Below are positions 9,933-15,317 of a DNA stretch of 64,000 bases, piece after piece. The notes below the pieces were generated by a model, which searched no databases, had not been told where the DNA came from, and saw only the letters and a list, made by a program, of their open reading frames with translations. Position 1 is the stretch's first letter. Every line of letters begins with the position of its first letter. Where the stretch lies: the IMG/VR virus record IMGVR_UViG_2531839524_000004; one strand, written 5' to 3'. The DNA comes from a virus. Its lineage: Duplodnaviria; Heunggongvirae; Uroviricota; Caudoviricetes. Both the position numbers and the translations under genes were made by a program.

Positions 9933-10403
9933 GTGAAAGCTGATTTGTCAAAAATCCCTTCTATTTCAGGAAATAACGGTTATTCACTTCGTTGTGAGGA
10001 AGTAAAGATAAACGGTGAGTCGGCATATTGCAGCTATTCCGTTTGCCAGCACACCATTCTTGCCTTCAAAGAAAACCGTCTTCCTCGAACTTCTTTCCAG
10101 TCGTGCGCAACCGCTATCAAAGCAGGCAAATGCAAGGCGTTAAAAATGATGGTTGAAGAGATTCGTAAAGGAGAATCTCTGTATTTCGAAGATATGACCG
10201 CGCTCATTAAGGAGGTTGAAGAACGGAATAAACAAGCCAGAACTATAAAACGAAAACGTGACAGTGTAACGATTAATAGCATGGTTAAGAAGAGCACCAC
10301 ATCACAAACAGCGATCACTGACGTGTATGCGGCGTTGCTTGAAGAAACAACAAAAGAAACACATGAGCAAATCGATCAACATATGGAGGCAAAACAACAA
10401 TGA
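9933..10403 (+). CDS. hypothetical Cys-rich protein
   Basis: ORF overlapping ligase start; several N-terminal cysteines; start codon uncertain (GTG in track). Confidence 0.4.
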   Translation: MKADLSKIPSISGNNGYSLRCEEVKINGESAYCSYSVCQHTILAFKENRLPRTSFQSCATAIKAGKCKALKMMVEEIRKGESLYFEDMTALIKEVEERNKQARTIKRKRDSVTINSMVKKSTTSQTAITDVYAALLEETTKETHEQIDQHMEAKQQ

Positions 10404-11722
10404 AAAAGTTGATCGCACTTAAGCATAAGCTGGACGAAATGAAAGCTATGGGAACCAATGCAAAAAAAGAGGCATTGGCCAACATGGATGACTTCGAGCA
10501 AAGCATGGTTTCATTGATGCTCAACCCTTTCATCCGTTTTGGGGTAAAGAAATACAAAGTGGCAGAGCCGCTTAGTGAGTCCGTCCCAAGTGACGAAAAA
10601 GCCATTGATATACTGAATAAGCTGGCCTCTCGCGAGCTGACGGGGAACGCAGCAATAGCTGCTGTTGAGTCTATCGTGGCGTCAATGTGCGCCGATGGGC
10701 AGGACGTGTTCCGTCGTTTCCTCTTAAAAGATCCGAAAGCTGGCGTTGGGATTAGCCTATGTAACAAGGTTTTTGAAAATCCCATTCCGAAATTCGAGGT
10801 GCAGCTGGCGTCACCGTATAAAGAAAAAGGCGACAAATACCCCTTCAAGCCAAATCCTAAAGCCAAATGGCCGATGATTGGCAGTCTTAAGCTCGATGGT
10901 TTGCGAGTAATTTGCGAGGTTATTGTTGACGAGGAAGAGGTTAACTTCCTTTCTCGTACTGGTAATCCAATCACGTCTCTCGATCACCTAAAGCCAGCCA
11001 TGCTCGAATTAGGCAAACTTTCAGGCCACAAACACATCTTCTTCGATGGTGAAGGAACTGCCGGTTCATTTAACCAGTCCGTATCTGCATTGCGCAAAAA
11101 GAACGTGCAGGCAATTGGCGCTATTTATCATGTTTTCGACTTCTTCCTACCGGAATGGCGAGCACAGGCTAAATCCAAAGAGTATGCAAAGACAGGTATG
11201 AAGCTGAAAGAGCGCCTGGCTATGCTGGTGGCGTTGTTCAAAAACGATCGCAGTGAAGGCTACACACAAGACATTCACCTGCATCCGTTCTATATCATCC
11301 ATAGCCACGAAGACTTCATCGAACGCTTCATGAAACGCCTGGACGATAACGAAGAAGGGGAGATGGGCAAAGATCCGAACTCTGTTTACGAGTTTAAACG
11401 TACCCGCAGCTGGTGGAAGTTAAAAGACGAAGATTCAGAAGATGGTGAAATTATCGACTTTGAGCCGGGCGACCCGGACTCTGGTTTTGCCAACACACTT
11501 GGAAAAATTGTTATTCGTCTTGAAAACGGCGTCATCGTTCGTGCGAGCGGTATTAAGCATAAATATCTGGACGAGATCTGGAACAACAAAGAGAAGTACC
11601 GTGGTCGTATTGTTGAGGTTCATTGTCACGAGAAAACACCGGATGGCAGCTTACGCCACCCCCGACTGAAATGGCCGCGTTGCTTACGCGATACAGAAGA
11701 TCGAATCGGAGATAAAGAATGA
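10400..11722 (+). CDS. ATP-dependent DNA ligase
   Basis: Adenylation motif I KLDGLR (KxDGxR) in PMIGSLKLDGLRV; length about 440 aa. Confidence 0.8.
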   Translation: MKKLIALKHKLDEMKAMGTNAKKEALANMDDFEQSMVSLMLNPFIRFGVKKYKVAEPLSESVPSDEKAIDILNKLASRELTGNAAIAAVESIVASMCADGQDVFRRFLLKDPKAGVGISLCNKVFENPIPKFEVQLASPYKEKGDKYPFKPNPKAKWPMIGSLKLDGLRVICEVIVDEEEVNFLSRTGNPITSLDHLKPAMLELGKLSGHKHIFFDGEGTAGSFNQSVSALRKKNVQAIGAIYHVFDFFLPEWRAQAKSKEYAKTGMKLKERLAMLVALFKNDRSEGYTQDIHLHPFYIIHSHEDFIERFMKRLDDNEEGEMGKDPNSVYEFKRTRSWWKLKDEDSEDGEIIDFEPGDPDSGFANTLGKIVIRLENGVIVRASGIKHKYLDEIWNNKEKYRGRIVEVHCHEKTPDGSLRHPRLKWPRCLRDTEDRIGDKE

Positions 11723-11898
11723 TGCTCGGCTGGATGATTGCATTTTTAGCAGTTGGGTTTTTCATAGGTATTGTGGTGATGTCCAGTTGCATCAATGACT
11801 ACATTAAAAGCGGTGTTATAGAAAGACGCGGTCGTATTTATCGCATTGTAGAAATAACCAACACCCTGAAGGAGATTAAGGATGATCGTATTAAGTAA
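11719..11898 (+). CDS. small membrane protein (59 aa), first of tandem paralogs
   Basis: ATG overlaps ligase stop (ATGA); N-terminal TM helix then GRIYRIVE motif shared with 12094..12246; below the ORF-track size cutoff. Confidence 0.45.
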   Translation: MMLGWMIAFLAVGFFIGIVVMSSCINDYIKSGVIERRGRIYRIVEITNTLKEIKDDRIK

Positions 11899-12097
11899 AC
11901 GGGAGAAGGAAACGCTTCATGAAATCAGTAAGTGGCCGGAGTTCCCTGAGTACTGGAAGCCTAAAACGCGAGCTAAGTTAGAGCGTTTAGGGTTGGTTGC
12001 AAACGTTTCTGAAACGTGGTGTTCGGCCAACTACCAGTTAACTGATAAAGGGAAAGTATTGCTACAGCAATTAGTAGAATCAGGAGTGTTAAAATGA
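11882..12097 (+). CDS. hypothetical protein
   Basis: 71 aa ORF, translationally coupled to flanking small genes. Confidence 0.4.
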   Translation: MIVLSKREKETLHEISKWPEFPEYWKPKTRAKLERLGLVANVSETWCSANYQLTDKGKVLLQQLVESGVLK

Positions 12098-12246
12098 TTC
12101 CATACATCTCATTAGCTTTTATGGGTGGCTTCCTTATCGGCTTCGGCATCTGTCGTGATTTAATTAAGCAGGAACTTAAAACCAAAACACTGTGCATCGG
12201 AAAGCGTGTGTATCGGGTAGTTCATGAAACAAAGGTGAAAAAATGA
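12094..12246 (+). CDS. small membrane protein (50 aa), paralog of 11719..11898
   Basis: ATGA overlap with upstream stop; TM helix FMGGFLIGFGI then KRVYRVVHE; not in ORF track (under 60 aa). Confidence 0.45.
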   Translation: MIPYISLAFMGGFLIGFGICRDLIKQELKTKTLCIGKRVYRVVHETKVKK

Positions 12247-12533
12247 GCAATTTAACTTCTTGGGAATGGTGGTTGGCCACCTATTTCTTAGCGGCCGGAG
12301 TCGCATTCGCCTTTTACGTAGGTCAGTTAGTCGTAAAACTGTTGCTGATTAAATTTGCTAGTCATAAACGTATCGATGATGGTCTGTGGCGTCTTGGCAC
12401 CCTGGTGGAAACTCGCTACGGGCAACTTAAGGAGAACGAAACCATTACTATCCAAGCGAAACGATTCACTGCCACCATTACAAGAACACCTAGTCGTAGA
12501 GTGGCCTTGATCAAAAAAGTCACAACCGAATAA
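12243..12533 (+). CDS. small membrane protein (96 aa)
   Basis: ATGA overlap with upstream gene; N-terminal TM helix YFLAAGVAFAFYVGQLV. Confidence 0.45.
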   Translation: MSNLTSWEWWLATYFLAAGVAFAFYVGQLVVKLLLIKFASHKRIDDGLWRLGTLVETRYGQLKENETITIQAKRFTATITRTPSRRVALIKKVTTE

Positions 12534-13311
12534 AAACATATTGATAAGTATTTACTTACTTATCTTTTGTGTATAAGATGACTTTGTTTTCGTTGAGACG
12601 CGACTGTTTGAACTTAAATACAAGTGCAAACGAAGAAGTCTATCTGGCAGTAGCCTAATAAGCCAAACACCAGCGAGGTCAGTTTCCAGCCTCGTTACCG
12701 AAATGGGACACACTGAGCGAGTGGGATTGCAGAACGCAGGAGGGAACATTCATGTTCCCTCCGATGAAGTAACAGAATGGGCGGTTGGTATATTTTCAAC
12801 TCCATATGACTCCCGGATTCTTAGCCACTGACCGCCCATTCTGTTACGTCATTTTGTTCAATTATGTCGTTTATACTGGGTTAAAAAGCGGCGACGTAGC
12901 CCGGCTGGTATGGTTAGCCAGCACACAACGTTGAGGCCATTACATTTTTATCAATTCTAAGGTTCTATTCACAGAGATACCGGCGAGCGTTGATATGTAA
13001 CATGTTGGGCAAACATTCAATCGGAGTAGTGGCCTCAACGTTGTGAAGACGGGATTGTTGTGTAGGTTTAACCACTGTTGCCATTGGTGCCTGTTTTCAC
13101 AACAAATGATTCCATACATCACATTGTATAAATTACAAAGTAGGTGCTGTCCTCAGAAACATCATCTACTTAAAGATTTTGCCTTCTACTATTGAGCGAA
13201 GTCGAAAGCGTCTGGCACTAACGAAAAGTGCAAGTAGCGGTGCGTTTCCTGGCAGAAACTAAACCGTCGCGATTGGCACTGTTGAGTAATAAATACTGGC
13301 AGTGCTGAATT

Positions 13312-13386
13312 GATGGTGTAGCTCAGCGGTAGAGCAGTTGGCTGTTAACCAACTGGTCGGTGGTTCGAATCCACCCACCATCGCCA
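13312..13386 (+). tRNA. tRNA-Asn (anticodon GTT)
   Basis: Hand-folded cloverleaf: acceptor GATGGTG/CACCATC, anticodon loop CTGTTAA, T-loop TTCGAAT, encoded CCA. Confidence 0.85.
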
Positions 13387-13391
13387 ATTTA

Positions 13392-13478
13392 GGGGAGTTA
13401 GTCCGTAGAGGTAGCGGTGTAGACTGTAAATCTACTGTCATGGCGACTCGGGTGGTTCGACTCCATCACTCCCCACCA
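13392..13478 (+). tRNA. tRNA-Tyr (anticodon GTA), long variable arm
   Basis: Acceptor GGGGAGT/ACTCCCC, anticodon loop CTGTAAA, long variable arm, encoded CCA. Confidence 0.8.
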
Positions 13479-13482
13479 AATT

Positions 13483-13558
13483 GCCGGTTTAGCTCAGTTG
13501 GTAGAGCGCCTGCCTTGTAAGCAGGATGTCAGCGGTTCGAGTCCGTTAACCGGCACCA
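13483..13558 (+). tRNA. tRNA-Thr (anticodon TGT)
   Basis: Acceptor GCCGGTT/AACCGGC, D-arm GCTCAGTTGGTAGAGC, anticodon loop CTTGTAA, T-loop TTCGAGT, CCA. Confidence 0.85.
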
Positions 13559-13775
13559 ACACAACAGGAAAGAGCATTGAAACCCGCCGAGACTGCCCTG
13601 TTTTAAGCGTAAGTCCGTGCAAACGTCATACAGTGCTCTTTTCGTTGTGGTTGATGCGCAGACTGATGCGCGGAAAGAAATGCCCCAGCGACACACGAGG
13701 CGAGTTCACACACTGCAATGCAGTCAGTAGCCGGGGTCGCTAAGCCGGAGATCAGTACCGGTAACCACAACAATT

Positions 13776-13862
13776 GGAGAGTAGGGAGCATGGTGCTCAA
13801 GCGGTCTTGAAAACCGTCCCATTGTGCAAACGATGATGGTTCGATTCCATTACTCTCCGCCA
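13776..13862 (+). tRNA. tRNA-Ser (anticodon TGA), long variable arm
   Basis: Acceptor GGAGAGT/ACTCTCC, anticodon loop CTTGAAA, long variable arm, T-loop TTCGATT, CCA; D-arm pairing slightly irregular. Confidence 0.7.
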
Positions 13863-14016: not shown

Positions 14017-14041
14017 AAAGGGGCTTCGGCCCCTTTTTTGT
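14017..14041 (+). terminator. rho-independent terminator closing the tRNA cluster
   Basis: GGGGC-TTCG-GCCCC followed by TTTTTT. Confidence 0.8.
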
Positions 14042-14054
14042 TGAACAGTGCAAT

Positions 14055-15317
14055 TTACTTTGCATAGTCGCCCAATTTTAATATTTCGCGCTTATATTCA
14101 TTAACCATGCTACTGGATTCAGTATAAATTCGATTTAAAAGATTATCGTTATCTTTATTTTCATTTATCTTAATTAGTGCTAATTTATATTCATAGTCAT
14201 CAAATGCCACAATTAAATGGTGGCCTGGGATTATATCTTCGTCACTCTTAAAGTATATATCTTCAAGTATGTAATCTAGTTGATTAGATTTTCTTTTCTC
14301 GATGTAATCTTCAGCCATAGCTATTACATCATTCCTGTCATTTAACCTGTTTTTTTCGGAAGGCACATCTTCGTAATGTTGCACGATTGAACAACCAATA
14401 AGGCGTGGGATGTAAACGTCAAAATGAGTAACTCTATCATTCGCGGTTTTAAGTAGTTCCTCAAAGTAGTTTCTTACATGTAAAGGCAACTTCTCAAAGT
14501 AATCATTAATTATAGGAGAACAAGGAGTTTTATAATTCATAAGAACCGACGGTACGAGCTTTGGGTGTCGAAACATCCAGTCCCTTTTAACGTCCGATGG
14601 AACATAATAACTTTTAATGATATTATCAAAATAATTTATCATTCGAGATTTGAATATTTTGTTGAATCTAAGGTTTATGAATGTATCCAGATAAGGCATA
14701 TTTGAATAAGCATCATCAAAAAATATTTCATCATTGAAAAAATCATATTTATTCAATAAACAACACAGTTTTTCCGAATTAATATGTTCACAATAATCGA
14801 TTTTTAATCCAAAGATAGCAATGATCAACTTCATCTGAGGTGGGATTTTAAAAATTAATTGTGACACATACGCTCTTTTTTCCTTGAGACATTCCCCATC
14901 AATATAAAATGAACCATCCACATACTCAAATATATTAATAATATGCTTCACATACTGTATTACCTCATGCTGTCTTACCAATGGATAATATAGTCTATGT
15001 AACTCATCGCTGTTTAAATTAATTTTGTGTTTATCGATAATTTGTTTTGCAAGAAGACATAACTCATCATGTTGATTTAATAAGGAATCAAACCATTGTT
15101 TAAATGCACTCTTTCGCATTTCGAACAATGATTCAGTTGTTAATTGAAGGGCTGAAAAAGCTGCTTTTGCACTTTTTCTCGCTTCGTAGGCATTCCATGC
15201 TGTTGCTATAAAAGCAAATGCTGTAGCCAATGTTCCAACAGTTTGACCATTTAAAACAACCCAATCCCAAAAAATGACGGTGAGCAGTAGTATAATAATG
15301 AAAATTAAAAAAGGCAT
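14055..15317 (-). CDS. membrane-anchored hypothetical protein, strongly AT-rich accessory gene
   Basis: 420 aa; two N-terminal TM helices; base composition much more AT-rich than flanking genes; isolated on minus strand. Confidence 0.6.
   Translation of the reverse strand: MPFLIFIIILLLTVIFWDWVVLNGQTVGTLATAFAFIATAWNAYEARKSAKAAFSALQLTTESLFEMRKSAFKQWFDSLLNQHDELCLLAKQIIDKHKINLNSDELHRLYYPLVRQHEVIQYVKHIINIFEYVDGSFYIDGECLKEKRAYVSQLIFKIPPQMKLIIAIFGLKIDYCEHINSEKLCCLLNKYDFFNDEIFFDDAYSNMPYLDTFINLRFNKIFKSRMINYFDNIIKSYYVPSDVKRDWMFRHPKLVPSVLMNYKTPCSPIINDYFEKLPLHVRNYFEELLKTANDRVTHFDVYIPRLIGCSIVQHYEDVPSEKNRLNDRNDVIAMAEDYIEKRKSNQLDYILEDIYFKSDEDIIPGHHLIVAFDDYEYKLALIKINENKDNDNLLNRIYTESSSMVNEYKREILKLGDYAK

What the first reader, a model, noticed from the sequence alone, without database searches (positions are those of the whole stretch)
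11719..12533. Translationally coupled tandem of small membrane proteins including two clear paralogs, two below ORF-track size
Directly coupled to the ligase stop are four overlapping small genes (ATGA junctions). Two of them (59 aa and 50 aa) share an N-terminal TM helix followed by a G-[RK]-[IV]-YR-[IV]-V-[EH]-[EI]-T motif, and a third has a similar TM-first layout. Small duplicated membrane peptides attached to a replication operon are candidates for toxin-like, exclusion or lysis-timing functions and are routinely missed by annotation.
Basis: seen in the sequence. Interest (0 to 1): 0.5.

Follow-up and report, generated by a model that had tools for sequence, protein, structure and literature searches.

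The report
Small membrane genes after phage-plasmid ligase
Four real, conserved small genes sit directly behind the DNA ligase gene of an SSU5-type phage-plasmid: two are sister membrane peptides, one is an unrelated membrane protein and one is a small probable DNA-binding protein, all already catalogued as proteins of unknown function and therefore an ordinary finding.

Summary
The window is an SSU5/Cyrano-type phage-plasmid, and ligase (10400-11722) is followed by four overlapping genes with Shine-Dalgarno sites. Three of the four junctions are ATGA; the A/B junction is a 17-nt overlap.

- **Real genes:** the block recurs in about 80 related loci, with dN/dS 0.08-0.19.
- **A and C:** the 58/59-aa and 50-aa peptides are true paralogs. 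Their profiles align without gaps over 46 columns, and 0 of 300 column shuffles reach that score. Bridging sequences reach E 8e-9. Both have an N-out/C-in helix with an invariant GxxxG and a cytoplasmic R-x-Y-R...T motif.
- **D:** the 96-aa protein shares the layout but is not demonstrably related.
- **B:** the 71-aa protein is soluble and looks like a winged helix.
- **Already catalogued:** all four fall in PHROG families of unknown function. RefSeq names the first gene aplA ("after-plasmid-ligase protein").
- **Expression and lysis:** published LF82 RNA-seq puts B, C and D at prophage background in lysogens (A is unannotated there). The lysis cassette lies elsewhere.

Function is untested. 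My best guess, at low confidence, is a membrane-anchored adaptor made with the replisome. Interest is modest.

By-catch: an unannotated, conserved, structured RNA just downstream (about 12583-13250) carries a tmRNA-like tag, ANEEVYLAVA**.

The parts
10400..11722 (+). ATP-dependent DNA ligase (440 aa), the upstream gene to which the block is coupled
   Evidence: ORF. Annotated as DNA ligase in Cyrano, SSU5 and RefSeq. PF01068 is recorded on homologues.
11719..11898 (+). Gene A (AplA). It is 59 aa from ATG 11719, or 58 aa from the conserved ATG 11722. It is an N-out/C-in single-pass membrane peptide with an invariant G12xxxG16 and the cytoplasmic motif RRGR-I-Y-R-I-V-E-I-T.
   Evidence: phrog_4381, E 1e-39. 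dN/dS 0.12. 100% identical to RefSeq WP_085949093.1 'after-plasmid-ligase protein AplA'. AlphaFold2 gives the membrane helix pLDDT 85-91.
11708..11723 (+). Left copy of a 16-nt direct repeat, GGAGATAAAGAATGAT (Shine-Dalgarno plus start), at the ligase/A junction
   Evidence: Sequence. Recombination with the right copy explains the precise 163-bp loss of gene A in 13 of 80 related loci.
11871..11886 (+). Right copy of the direct repeat, GGAGATTAAGGATGAT (14 of 16 bases identical), at the A/B junction
   Evidence: In the deletion variants gene B starts at the ligase ATGA.
11882..12097 (+). Gene B (71 aa): soluble, basic, probable minimal winged helix-turn-helix protein
   Evidence: phrog_4054, E 2e-45. 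dN/dS 0.08. No hydrophobic segment. Consistent sub-threshold matches of residues 31-67 to the recognition helix and wing of HxlR, MarR, ScoC and TubR, Csa3/CARF wHTH and HTH_45. Cyrano annotators call it 'putative transcriptional regulator'.
12094..12246 (+). Gene C (50 aa): paralog of A. It has the same helix with GxxxG, then K-R-V-Y-R-V-V-H-E-T; the net charge of the tail is +7.
   Evidence: phrog_6302, E 1e-36. dN/dS 0.19. Paralogy tests. Topology.
12243..12533 (+). Gene D (96 aa): single-pass membrane protein with a conserved G19xxxA23xxxG27 glycine zipper. The juxtamembrane block FASHKRIDDGLWRLG is near-invariant, and the basic cytoplasmic domain (+7) ends in a predicted beta-hairpin. It is not demonstrably related to A or C.
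   Evidence: phrog_4507, E 2e-58. dN/dS 0.09. Alignments A3 and A4. AlphaFold2: helix 6-61, strands 67-71 and 76-80, at low confidence. hhalign against A and C is not significant. The hairpin HMM test gives p = 0.63.

Best explanation
**Shown**
- Four real protein genes are translated in series with the ligase at the 3' end of the helicase-primase-ligase operon of an SSU5-type phage-plasmid.
- A (AplA) and C are paralogous N-out/C-in single-pass peptides. Their invariant residues are a GxxxG helix-packing motif and a basic cytoplasmic R-x-Y-R...T motif.
- D is a third, unrelated C-in membrane protein with a glycine zipper and a basic cytoplasmic domain of about 60 aa.
- B is a soluble protein that looks like a winged helix.
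- B, C and D (CYRAN_37-39) are silent in the lysogen, like the ligase and the structural genes; gene A is unannotated in that data set.

**Inferred (the mechanism I commit to)**
- During lytic replication, A, C and D assemble through their glycine motifs into a small inner-membrane complex.
- The conserved basic cytoplasmic tails, possibly with the winged-helix protein B, hold replicating phage-plasmid DNA or a replisome component at the inner face of the membrane.
- This would be a non-essential organiser of replication, working like phi29 p1/p16.7 without being homologous to them.
For: - The block is coupled to the ligase stop in every relative examined. This includes distant ones, where the content varies but an A/C-type peptide and a D-type protein always follow the ligase.
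- The N-terminal flanks carry no positive charge, and the C-terminal flanks are net positive, up to +9.
- G12, G16, R38, Y40, R41 and T46 are invariant across both paralog families. D has a conserved glycine zipper.
- Purifying selection acts on all four genes.
- A winged-helix-like protein sits inside the same coupled block.
- No + strand terminator-like site with a strong stem (more than 5 pairs) lies between the ligase gene and 14017; the scan lists only two weak 5-pair matches (11465-11477 inside ligase, 12268-12281 inside gene D), at a rate no higher than in shuffled sequence.
- In LF82 lysogens the genes are expressed at prophage background, like the ligase.
- There is a precedent for small membrane proteins of an early operon anchoring phage replication: phi29 p1 and p16.7 (PMC4974454).
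Against: - No experiment exists, and no DNA-binding or replisome-binding domain is recognised.
- AlphaFold2 models of the cytoplasmic parts are of low confidence, and for A the tail is modelled as helix rather than hairpin.
- There is no sequence relation to phi29 p16.7 or any Pfam family.
- The genes are dispensable in nature. A is cleanly deleted in 13 of 80 loci. C and D are replaced or truncated in 6. B is absent in L083 and L088.
- Position in a replication operon is weak evidence of function in phages.
- The downstream neighbourhood in relatives carries accessory anti-defence genes (Tad2, Acb2/Tad1, Lar). That fits a host-interaction role equally well.
Confidence: 0.3

Rival explanations
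1. The peptides are host-takeover or exclusion modulators. A, C and D insert next to a host inner-membrane protein (a division, transport, protease or DNA-entry component) through their glycine-motif helices. They inhibit or redirect it during lytic growth, as T4 Imm/Sp or small bacterial regulators such as AcrZ and MgtS do. The ligase linkage would be only inherited gene order.
For: - The architecture (about 50 aa, single helix, GxxxG, short tail) is typical of small membrane-protein regulators (established knowledge).
- Gain, loss and replacement behave like accessory genes.
- The family is very narrow: only 23 representatives in 1.84 billion proteins, almost all traced on ~100-112-kb phage-plasmid-sized contigs from Enterobacteriaceae (two of the most distant came from short metagenome contigs of unknown origin). 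This fits a host-specific target.
- The neighbouring region in relatives is an accessory and anti-defence hot spot.
Against: - No hit to any exclusion, defence or anti-defence family.
- Expression in lysogens is at background, so lysogenic exclusion is unlikely.
- The strictly conserved residues include a cytoplasmic motif, not only the helix.
- The tight translational coupling to ligase is kept across divergent relatives.
Confidence: 0.25
2. The peptides are toxin-like or lysis-timing proteins. They would permeabilise or depolarise the inner membrane (holin, antiholin or type-I-toxin-like) and so tune the time of lysis or kill the cell.
For: - Small hydrophobic peptides with glycine-rich helices can form pores.
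- D has a weak helix-only match to a holin PHROG (E 0.027).
Against: - A complete holin-endolysin-Rz-Rz1 cassette lies elsewhere (CYRAN_22-25).
- There is only one hydrophobic segment per peptide, and no amphipathic charged helix face was noted.
- No separate promoter or antisense-RNA arrangement was noted, but neither was specifically looked for.
- Pfam, PADLOC and NCBIfam contain no toxin hit.
- The conserved residues are concentrated in the cytoplasmic tails.
- Natural loss of A or of C+D occurs without visible loss of the lysis genes.
Confidence: 0.08
3. The reading frames are chance ORFs or are conserved for a reason other than protein coding, such as RNA structure or overlapping signals.
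For: - They are very short.
- A is not called in one curated phage record.
Against: - dN/dS is 0.08-0.19, with dS about 0.7-1.5.
- Shine-Dalgarno sites lie at the correct spacing.
- The frames are intact across about 80 loci with 59-78% amino-acid identity.
- PHROG families exist.
- The exact proteins are seen on 1000 or more public contigs.
Confidence: 0.02

Closest known systems
AplA, 'after-plasmid-ligase protein' (RefSeq gene aplA, WP_085949093.1), with PHROGs 4381, 4054, 6302 and 4507
   Same: Gene A is 100% identical to AplA and lies in the same position. All four proteins match their PHROG over the full length at E 1e-36 to 1e-58.
   Different: These are only names and clusters; no function or paper is attached. 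A and C sit in different PHROGs, and RefSeq names only A, so neither catalogue records their paralogy. D carries the misleading label 'C-type natriuretic protein', which has no Pfam support.
Bacillus phage phi29 p16.7 and p1, membrane proteins that organise phage DNA replication
   Same: These are small proteins of an early/replication operon that are membrane-anchored and act from the cytoplasmic face. They are proposed to tether replicating DNA or replication proteins to the membrane (PMC4974454).
   Different: No sequence or fold relation was found. p16.7 has a coiled coil and a defined DNA-binding dimer domain, whereas here the tails are only 30-60 aa with an unrecognised fold. phi29 uses protein-primed replication in a Gram-positive host. 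The resemblance is functional speculation only.
Small single-pass membrane regulators of bacteria (AcrZ, MgtS, MgrB, SgrT class) and phage exclusion proteins (T4 Imm and Sp)
   Same: Size of about 50-100 aa, one helix, helix-packing motifs, and action by binding a larger membrane protein (from general knowledge, not tested here).
   Different: No homology was detected in Pfam, NCBIfam, PADLOC or PHROG functional categories. Here the conserved cytoplasmic motif and the coupling to ligase are distinctive.
Winged helix-turn-helix proteins of the MarR/HxlR/TubR type (for gene B)
   Same: Residues 31-67 of B align with the recognition helix, wing and following helix of these proteins and with the C-terminal wHTH of Csa3/CARF.
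   Different: All matches are below significance (E 0.0015-1.1). At 71 aa, B is a bare domain without the dimerisation helices of MarR.

Membership tests
AplA (RefSeq 'after-plasmid-ligase protein') | Sequence identity to the named RefSeq protein | tested here: met
   58 of 58 residues are identical to the aplA product of pMB5646_2.
AplA (RefSeq 'after-plasmid-ligase protein') | Position immediately after the ATP-dependent ligase gene of an SSU5-type plasmid | tested here: met
   The start overlaps the ligase stop. The same holds in 66 of 80 IMG/VR loci.
AplA (RefSeq 'after-plasmid-ligase protein') | Match to the NCBI model or rule that assigns the name | not testable with these tools
   A scan of NCBIfam release 20 returned no family for A. 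The name must come from a rule or model not in that library.
A/C small-peptide superfamily (phrog_4381 + phrog_6302) | N-terminal membrane helix with GxxxG, then R-[IVL]-Y-[RK]-[IV]-[VI]-x-x-T at a fixed distance | tested here: met
   G12, G16, R38, Y40, R41 and T46 are invariant in 44 sequences. The profiles align without gaps, with 0 of 300 shuffles reaching the score. Bridging members are P0111, P0112 and P0192.
A/C small-peptide superfamily (does D belong to it?) | Significant profile or motif similarity of D to A/C | tested here: not met
   hhalign gives E 0.35 and 0.035, with probability below 2%. The hairpin HMM score of D is no better than that of shuffled tails (p = 0.63).
Holins / antiholins | Family match beyond the hydrophobic segment | tested here: not met
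   The only hit is phrog_2359 at E 0.027, over residues 8-34 of D, which is the helix itself.
Holins / antiholins | Location in the lysis cassette next to the endolysin | tested here: not met
   In Cyrano, holin, endolysin, Rz and Rz1 are CYRAN_22-25, about 9 kb upstream of the block.
Toxin-antitoxin / defence-system components | Match to a known toxin or defence model | tested here: not met
   PADLOC gives nothing for A, C or D. Pfam and NCBIfam give nothing above threshold.
Toxin-antitoxin / lysogenic-conversion genes (morons) | Expression in the lysogen above prophage background | tested here: not met
   In the LF82 RNA-seq table, CYRAN_37-39 read 5.0-7.6, against 5.9 for ligase and 7-10 for structural genes. 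The genes are absent from the list of 13 Cyrano morons. Gene A is not annotated there, so it was not measured.
phi29 p16.7-type replication organisers | Sequence homology to p16.7 or p1 | tested here: not met
   No Pfam family was hit at E <= 1, apart from unrelated weak matches.
phi29 p16.7-type replication organisers | Membrane anchor plus cytoplasmic DNA or replisome binding | not testable with these tools
   The anchor and C-in topology are inferred from hydropathy and charge. Binding needs an experiment.
Winged helix-turn-helix (gene B) | Significant match to a wHTH family or structure | tested here: inconclusive
   The hits are consistent but sub-threshold: HTH_45 E 0.18; SSO5209 family E 0.013; Csa3 wHTH E 0.0015; HxlR, MarR, ScoC and TubR E 0.25-1.1.

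The most novel reading that the evidence does not exclude
The A/C paralogs, D and the winged-helix protein B form a dedicated inner-membrane platform that anchors and organises phage-plasmid DNA replication in Enterobacteriaceae. It would be a phi29 p1/p16.7-like system, evolved independently in a Gram-negative temperate phage-plasmid. The duplicated peptide (A and C) would give two docking sites.
Probability: 0.12. Interest if true: 0.6.

Novelty: already known. Interest (0 to 1): 0.3.

Why it matters
If the block were shown to tether replication to the membrane, or to disable a host membrane function, it would give a function to genes carried by a widespread family of plasmids. In the collection searched, the block is on plasmids of 246 of 5426 complete E. 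coli genomes. That plasmid family also spreads resistance genes.

As it stands, the result mainly tidies annotation:
- The four genes are real.
- AplA has an unrecorded paralog two genes downstream.
- The 71-aa gene is not a membrane protein.
- The label 'C-type natriuretic protein' is spurious.
- The toxin and lysis-timing readings have little support.

The adjacent tmRNA-like RNA may be the more valuable lead.

Tried and rejected
- **D as a third paralog of A and C.** The hairpin ETITIQAKRFTATITRT looks like KTLCIGKRVYRVVHET by eye. However, hhalign is not significant, and an HMM of the A/C hairpin scores D no better than shuffled tails (p = 0.63). Rejected.
- **A beta-hairpin in A and C.** AlphaFold2 with a 44-sequence alignment models the tail as helix at pLDDT 55-61. 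The hairpin therefore remains an inference from the alternating residue pattern only.
- **Fold of D.** The model has a mean pLDDT of 67.6. A Foldseek search against viral structures gave nothing at E <= 0.001.
- **Sequence libraries.** Pfam, NCBIfam, PADLOC and PDB, searched with single sequences and with profiles for B and D, gave nothing significant.
- **Wider relatives.**
  - The word-indexed search and the exhaustive HMM search with the A+C profile stayed almost entirely within ~100-112-kb phage-plasmid-sized contigs, those that carry an organism name being Enterobacteriaceae.
  - Two of the most distant hits were traced to short metagenome contigs of unknown origin.
- **Literature.** No paper mentions SSU5_045-048, CYRAN_38/39 or 'after-plasmid-ligase'.
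- **Lysis role.** Rejected on gene location.
- **The by-catch RNA.**
  - I could not find a tRNA-like domain.
  - ARAGORN finds the resume and tag sequence only at 70% thresholds, with an unconvincing tRNA-like assignment.
  - Rfam tmRNA models score 17-23 bits, far below their gathering scores.
Full report
**What the window is.** The region is 98.5% identical to Escherichia phage Cyrano, the phage-plasmid pLF82 of E. coli LF82. It is 79.5% identical to Salmonella phage SSU5. In both, the order helicase, primase, two unknown genes and ligase is followed by the same small genes and then by tRNA genes.

**Checking the observation.**
- The ORF list and sequence show ligase 10400-11722, A 11719-11898 (59 aa), B 11882-12097 (71 aa), C 12094-12246 (50 aa) and D 12243-12533 (96 aa).
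- Ligase/A, B/C and C/D overlap as ATGA. A/B overlaps by 17 nt.
- Each start has a Shine-Dalgarno sequence 5-7 nt upstream.
- In other clades the first codon of A is not a start codon, while the second Met is invariant. RefSeq calls the 58-aa form.
- So the description is right apart from one junction, the register of the motif, and the fact that B is not hydrophobic.

**Are they genes?**
- Using the ligase as an anchor I fetched 80 related loci from IMG/VR. tblastn finds the block in nearly all of them, with small-protein identities down to 42-78% while ligase stays at 84-100%.
- The frames are intact.
- Pairwise Nei-Gojobori dN/dS is 0.12, 0.08, 0.19 and 0.09 for A to D, at dS of about 0.7-1.5.
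- Junction geometry is conserved.
- Each protein matches a PHROG of unknown function over its full length.
- The exact sequences occur on 1000 or more public contigs.
- They are real coding genes.

**Paralogy of A and C.**
- BLASTP gives 31% identity over 45 residues, E 3e-5.
- Family profiles align without a gap over 46 columns, E 1.8e-5.
- Shuffling the columns of the C profile never reaches the observed score, either for all columns or for the tail alone with the membrane helix kept (0 of 300 each).
- G12, G16, R38, Y40, R41 and T46 are invariant across 44 members of both families.
- Single-copy relatives are intermediate. P0111 matches A at 39% identity, E 8e-9.
- D does not join this family.

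**Anatomy.**
- A, C and D each have one strongly hydrophobic segment near the N-terminus.
- They have no positive charge before it and a basic region after it (net +3, +7 and +7 in the window). The positive-inside rule therefore predicts N-out/C-in.
- A and C carry GxxxG. D carries a conserved G19xxxA23xxxG27 and a near-invariant juxtamembrane block.
- AlphaFold2 is confident only about the helices.
- B has no hydrophobic segment. It repeatedly gives sub-threshold matches to the recognition helix and wing of winged-helix proteins.

**Variation in nature.**
- A 16-nt direct repeat (Shine-Dalgarno plus start, 14 of 16 bases identical) flanks gene A, at 11708-11723 and 11871-11886.
- Thirteen of 80 loci lack exactly the 163 bp between the copies, which places B on the ligase ATGA.
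- In six loci the 3' half of C is lost and D is absent. In the four L074-type loci they are replaced by a 138-aa tail-anchored protein; in L037 and L038 the contig ends soon after the truncated C.
- More distant 110-kb elements show three other arrangements: ligase, A-like, C-like, D-like (L083); ligase, B, C-like, D-like (L084); and ligase, one A/C-type peptide, D-like (L088).
- The constant core is therefore one A/C-type peptide plus one D-type protein behind the ligase. The duplication and B are optional.

**Distribution and names.**
- A word-indexed search of 5.8 billion clusters found 144 A/C-type proteins.
- An exhaustive profile search of 1.84 billion representatives found 23.
- Where a hit carries an organism name or was traced to a long contig, it comes from Enterobacteriaceae and a contig of about 100-112 kb, the size of these phage-plasmids. 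Two distant hits lie on short metagenome contigs of unknown origin.
- The B and D families are equally narrow.
- RefSeq names A 'after-plasmid-ligase protein AplA' and leaves B, C and D hypothetical.
- D is widely mislabelled 'C-type natriuretic protein'.
- No paper mentions any of them.

**Evidence bearing on function.**
- The lysis cassette is elsewhere in Cyrano.
- In the LF82 transcriptome, CYRAN_37-39 are at prophage background in LB-grown lysogens. So are the ligase and the structural genes. The element's toxin-antitoxin genes are 9-60-fold above background (PMC9928086).
- No + strand terminator-like site with more than a minimal 5-pair stem lies between the ligase and 14017.
- There are no hits to defence, toxin, exclusion or holin families.
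- Together this points away from lysogenic conversion, toxin-antitoxin and lysis roles. It points towards a lytic-phase function carried out at the cytoplasmic face of the membrane.

**Mechanism.** What the sequence shows is a set of C-in membrane anchors with helix-packing motifs and conserved basic cytoplasmic motifs. They are made in fixed proportion with ligase, together with a small winged-helix-like protein.
- My preferred reading (0.3) is a non-essential membrane tether or organiser of phage-plasmid replication. It would work like phi29 p1/p16.7 (PMC4974454), although membership of that family was tested and failed.
- The nearly equal rival (0.25) is modulation of a host inner-membrane protein during takeover or exclusion. 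The accessory-like gain and loss favours this, as do the anti-defence genes nearby in relatives.
- Toxin or lysis timing (0.08) and non-coding artefact (0.02) are unlikely.

**Novelty and score.**
- The genes themselves are already catalogued and, in one case, named. New here are:
  - the A/C paralogy and its invariant residues;
  - the repeat-mediated loss of A;
  - the corrected nature of B;
  - the rejection of D as a paralog.
- No specialist would be very surprised, and no open question becomes testable from this alone. Interest is 0.3.

**By-catch.** The 780 nt between D and tRNA-Asn have no long ORF but are conserved across the group. Some blocks there are more conserved than the flanking genes.
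- **Tag sequence.** The region contains GCA AAC GAA GAA GTC TAT CTG GCA GTA GCC TAA TAA, which reads ANEEVYLAVA**.
  - Clade variants are ANEDTYLAVA, ANEDAYLAVA and ANDNQYLAVA, with synonymous changes in Tyr and the last Ala.
  - This closely resembles the E. coli ssrA tag ANDENYALAA (from memory).
- **No conventional start.** In the SSU5 clade an in-frame TGA lies five codons upstream, with no start codon between. The stop codons sit in a hairpin loop, as in tmRNA helix 5.
- **Structure.** An RNAalifold structure has 22 pairs with compensatory double changes, against 10.6 ± 2.0 in shuffles (0 of 500) and 5-12 in slid controls.
- **What is missing.** No tRNA-like domain was found. The region is unannotated in RefSeq, and no paper links tmRNA with these elements.
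- **CRISPR match.** An E. coli CRISPR spacer matches 12912-12944.

Noticed in passing
window 12583-13250 (+), between gene D and tRNA-Asn: An unannotated, conserved, structured RNA of about 650 nt follows gene D. It carries a tmRNA-like resume and tag sequence at 12626-12661, reading ANEEVYLAVA**. Variants in 75 loci are AN[ED][EDN][VTQA]YLAVA. In the SSU5 clade there is no start codon, and an in-frame stop lies upstream. The stop codons sit in a hairpin loop. Upstream are invariant promoter-like hexamers, TTTACT-N17-TAAGAT, at 12551-12579. The structure has covariation support: 22 double-change pairs against 10.6 in shuffles. No tRNA-like domain was found, and Rfam tmRNA models score far below threshold. 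Possibly a divergent or truncated phage-plasmid tmRNA, or a mimic of one.
   Followed up: partly
window 12912-12944: A 33-nt stretch inside that conserved non-coding RNA matches, at 100%, a spacer in a chromosomal CRISPR array of E. coli (NZ_LR778147.1, 1705873-1705905). Some hosts therefore target this element at this site (H22).
   Followed up: no
window 11708-11723 and 11871-11886; loci L004, L011, L013, L016, L019, L022, L024-L026, L028, L032, L035, L036: Gene A is a 163-bp cassette bounded by 16-nt direct repeats of the Shine-Dalgarno-plus-start sequence. Thirteen related elements have lost exactly this cassette. Two of them (L032, L036) have divergent ligase (96% and 92%) but near-identical B, C and D, which suggests recombination between lineages.
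   Followed up: yes
L074 5695-6262 (also L072, L075, L079): In one Klebsiella-type clade the 3' half of gene C and all of gene D are replaced by an unrelated 138-aa protein with a C-terminal membrane anchor. The downstream conserved RNA is kept.
   Followed up: partly
L084 4323-5101; L088 6962-7636: In more distant relatives the stretch after the small-gene block carries anti-defence genes: Tad2-like and Acb2/Tad1-hairpin in L084, and NinH and Lar restriction alleviation in L088. This neighbourhood is therefore an accessory-gene hot spot.
   Followed up: no
window 13312-13862: The tRNA cluster here has four genes (Asn, Tyr, Thr, Ser). Cyrano has three, lacking Tyr, and SSU5 has one annotated at this site. 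The cluster ends at a strong terminator at 14017-14036.
   Followed up: no
window 12243-12533 (gene D) and public records: Gene D is widely annotated 'C-type natriuretic protein' (SSU5_048 and many NCBI records). No Pfam or other family supports this, so it looks like a propagated misnomer.
   Followed up: partly
window 14055-15317 (-): A 420-aa minus-strand ORF with an N-terminal hydrophobic segment lies just past the tRNA terminator. Cyrano has different genes at this position, and L074 has an unrelated 529-aa minus-strand ORF there. It is probably a variable accessory locus.
   Followed up: no
window 12552-12749 (-) and the equivalent in L002 and L074: A minus-strand 'ORF' with the conserved peptide ...CPISVTRLETDLAGVWL... 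recurs in all clades. It overlaps the most conserved part of the structured RNA, so it is most likely a by-product of RNA conservation rather than a gene.
   Followed up: partly
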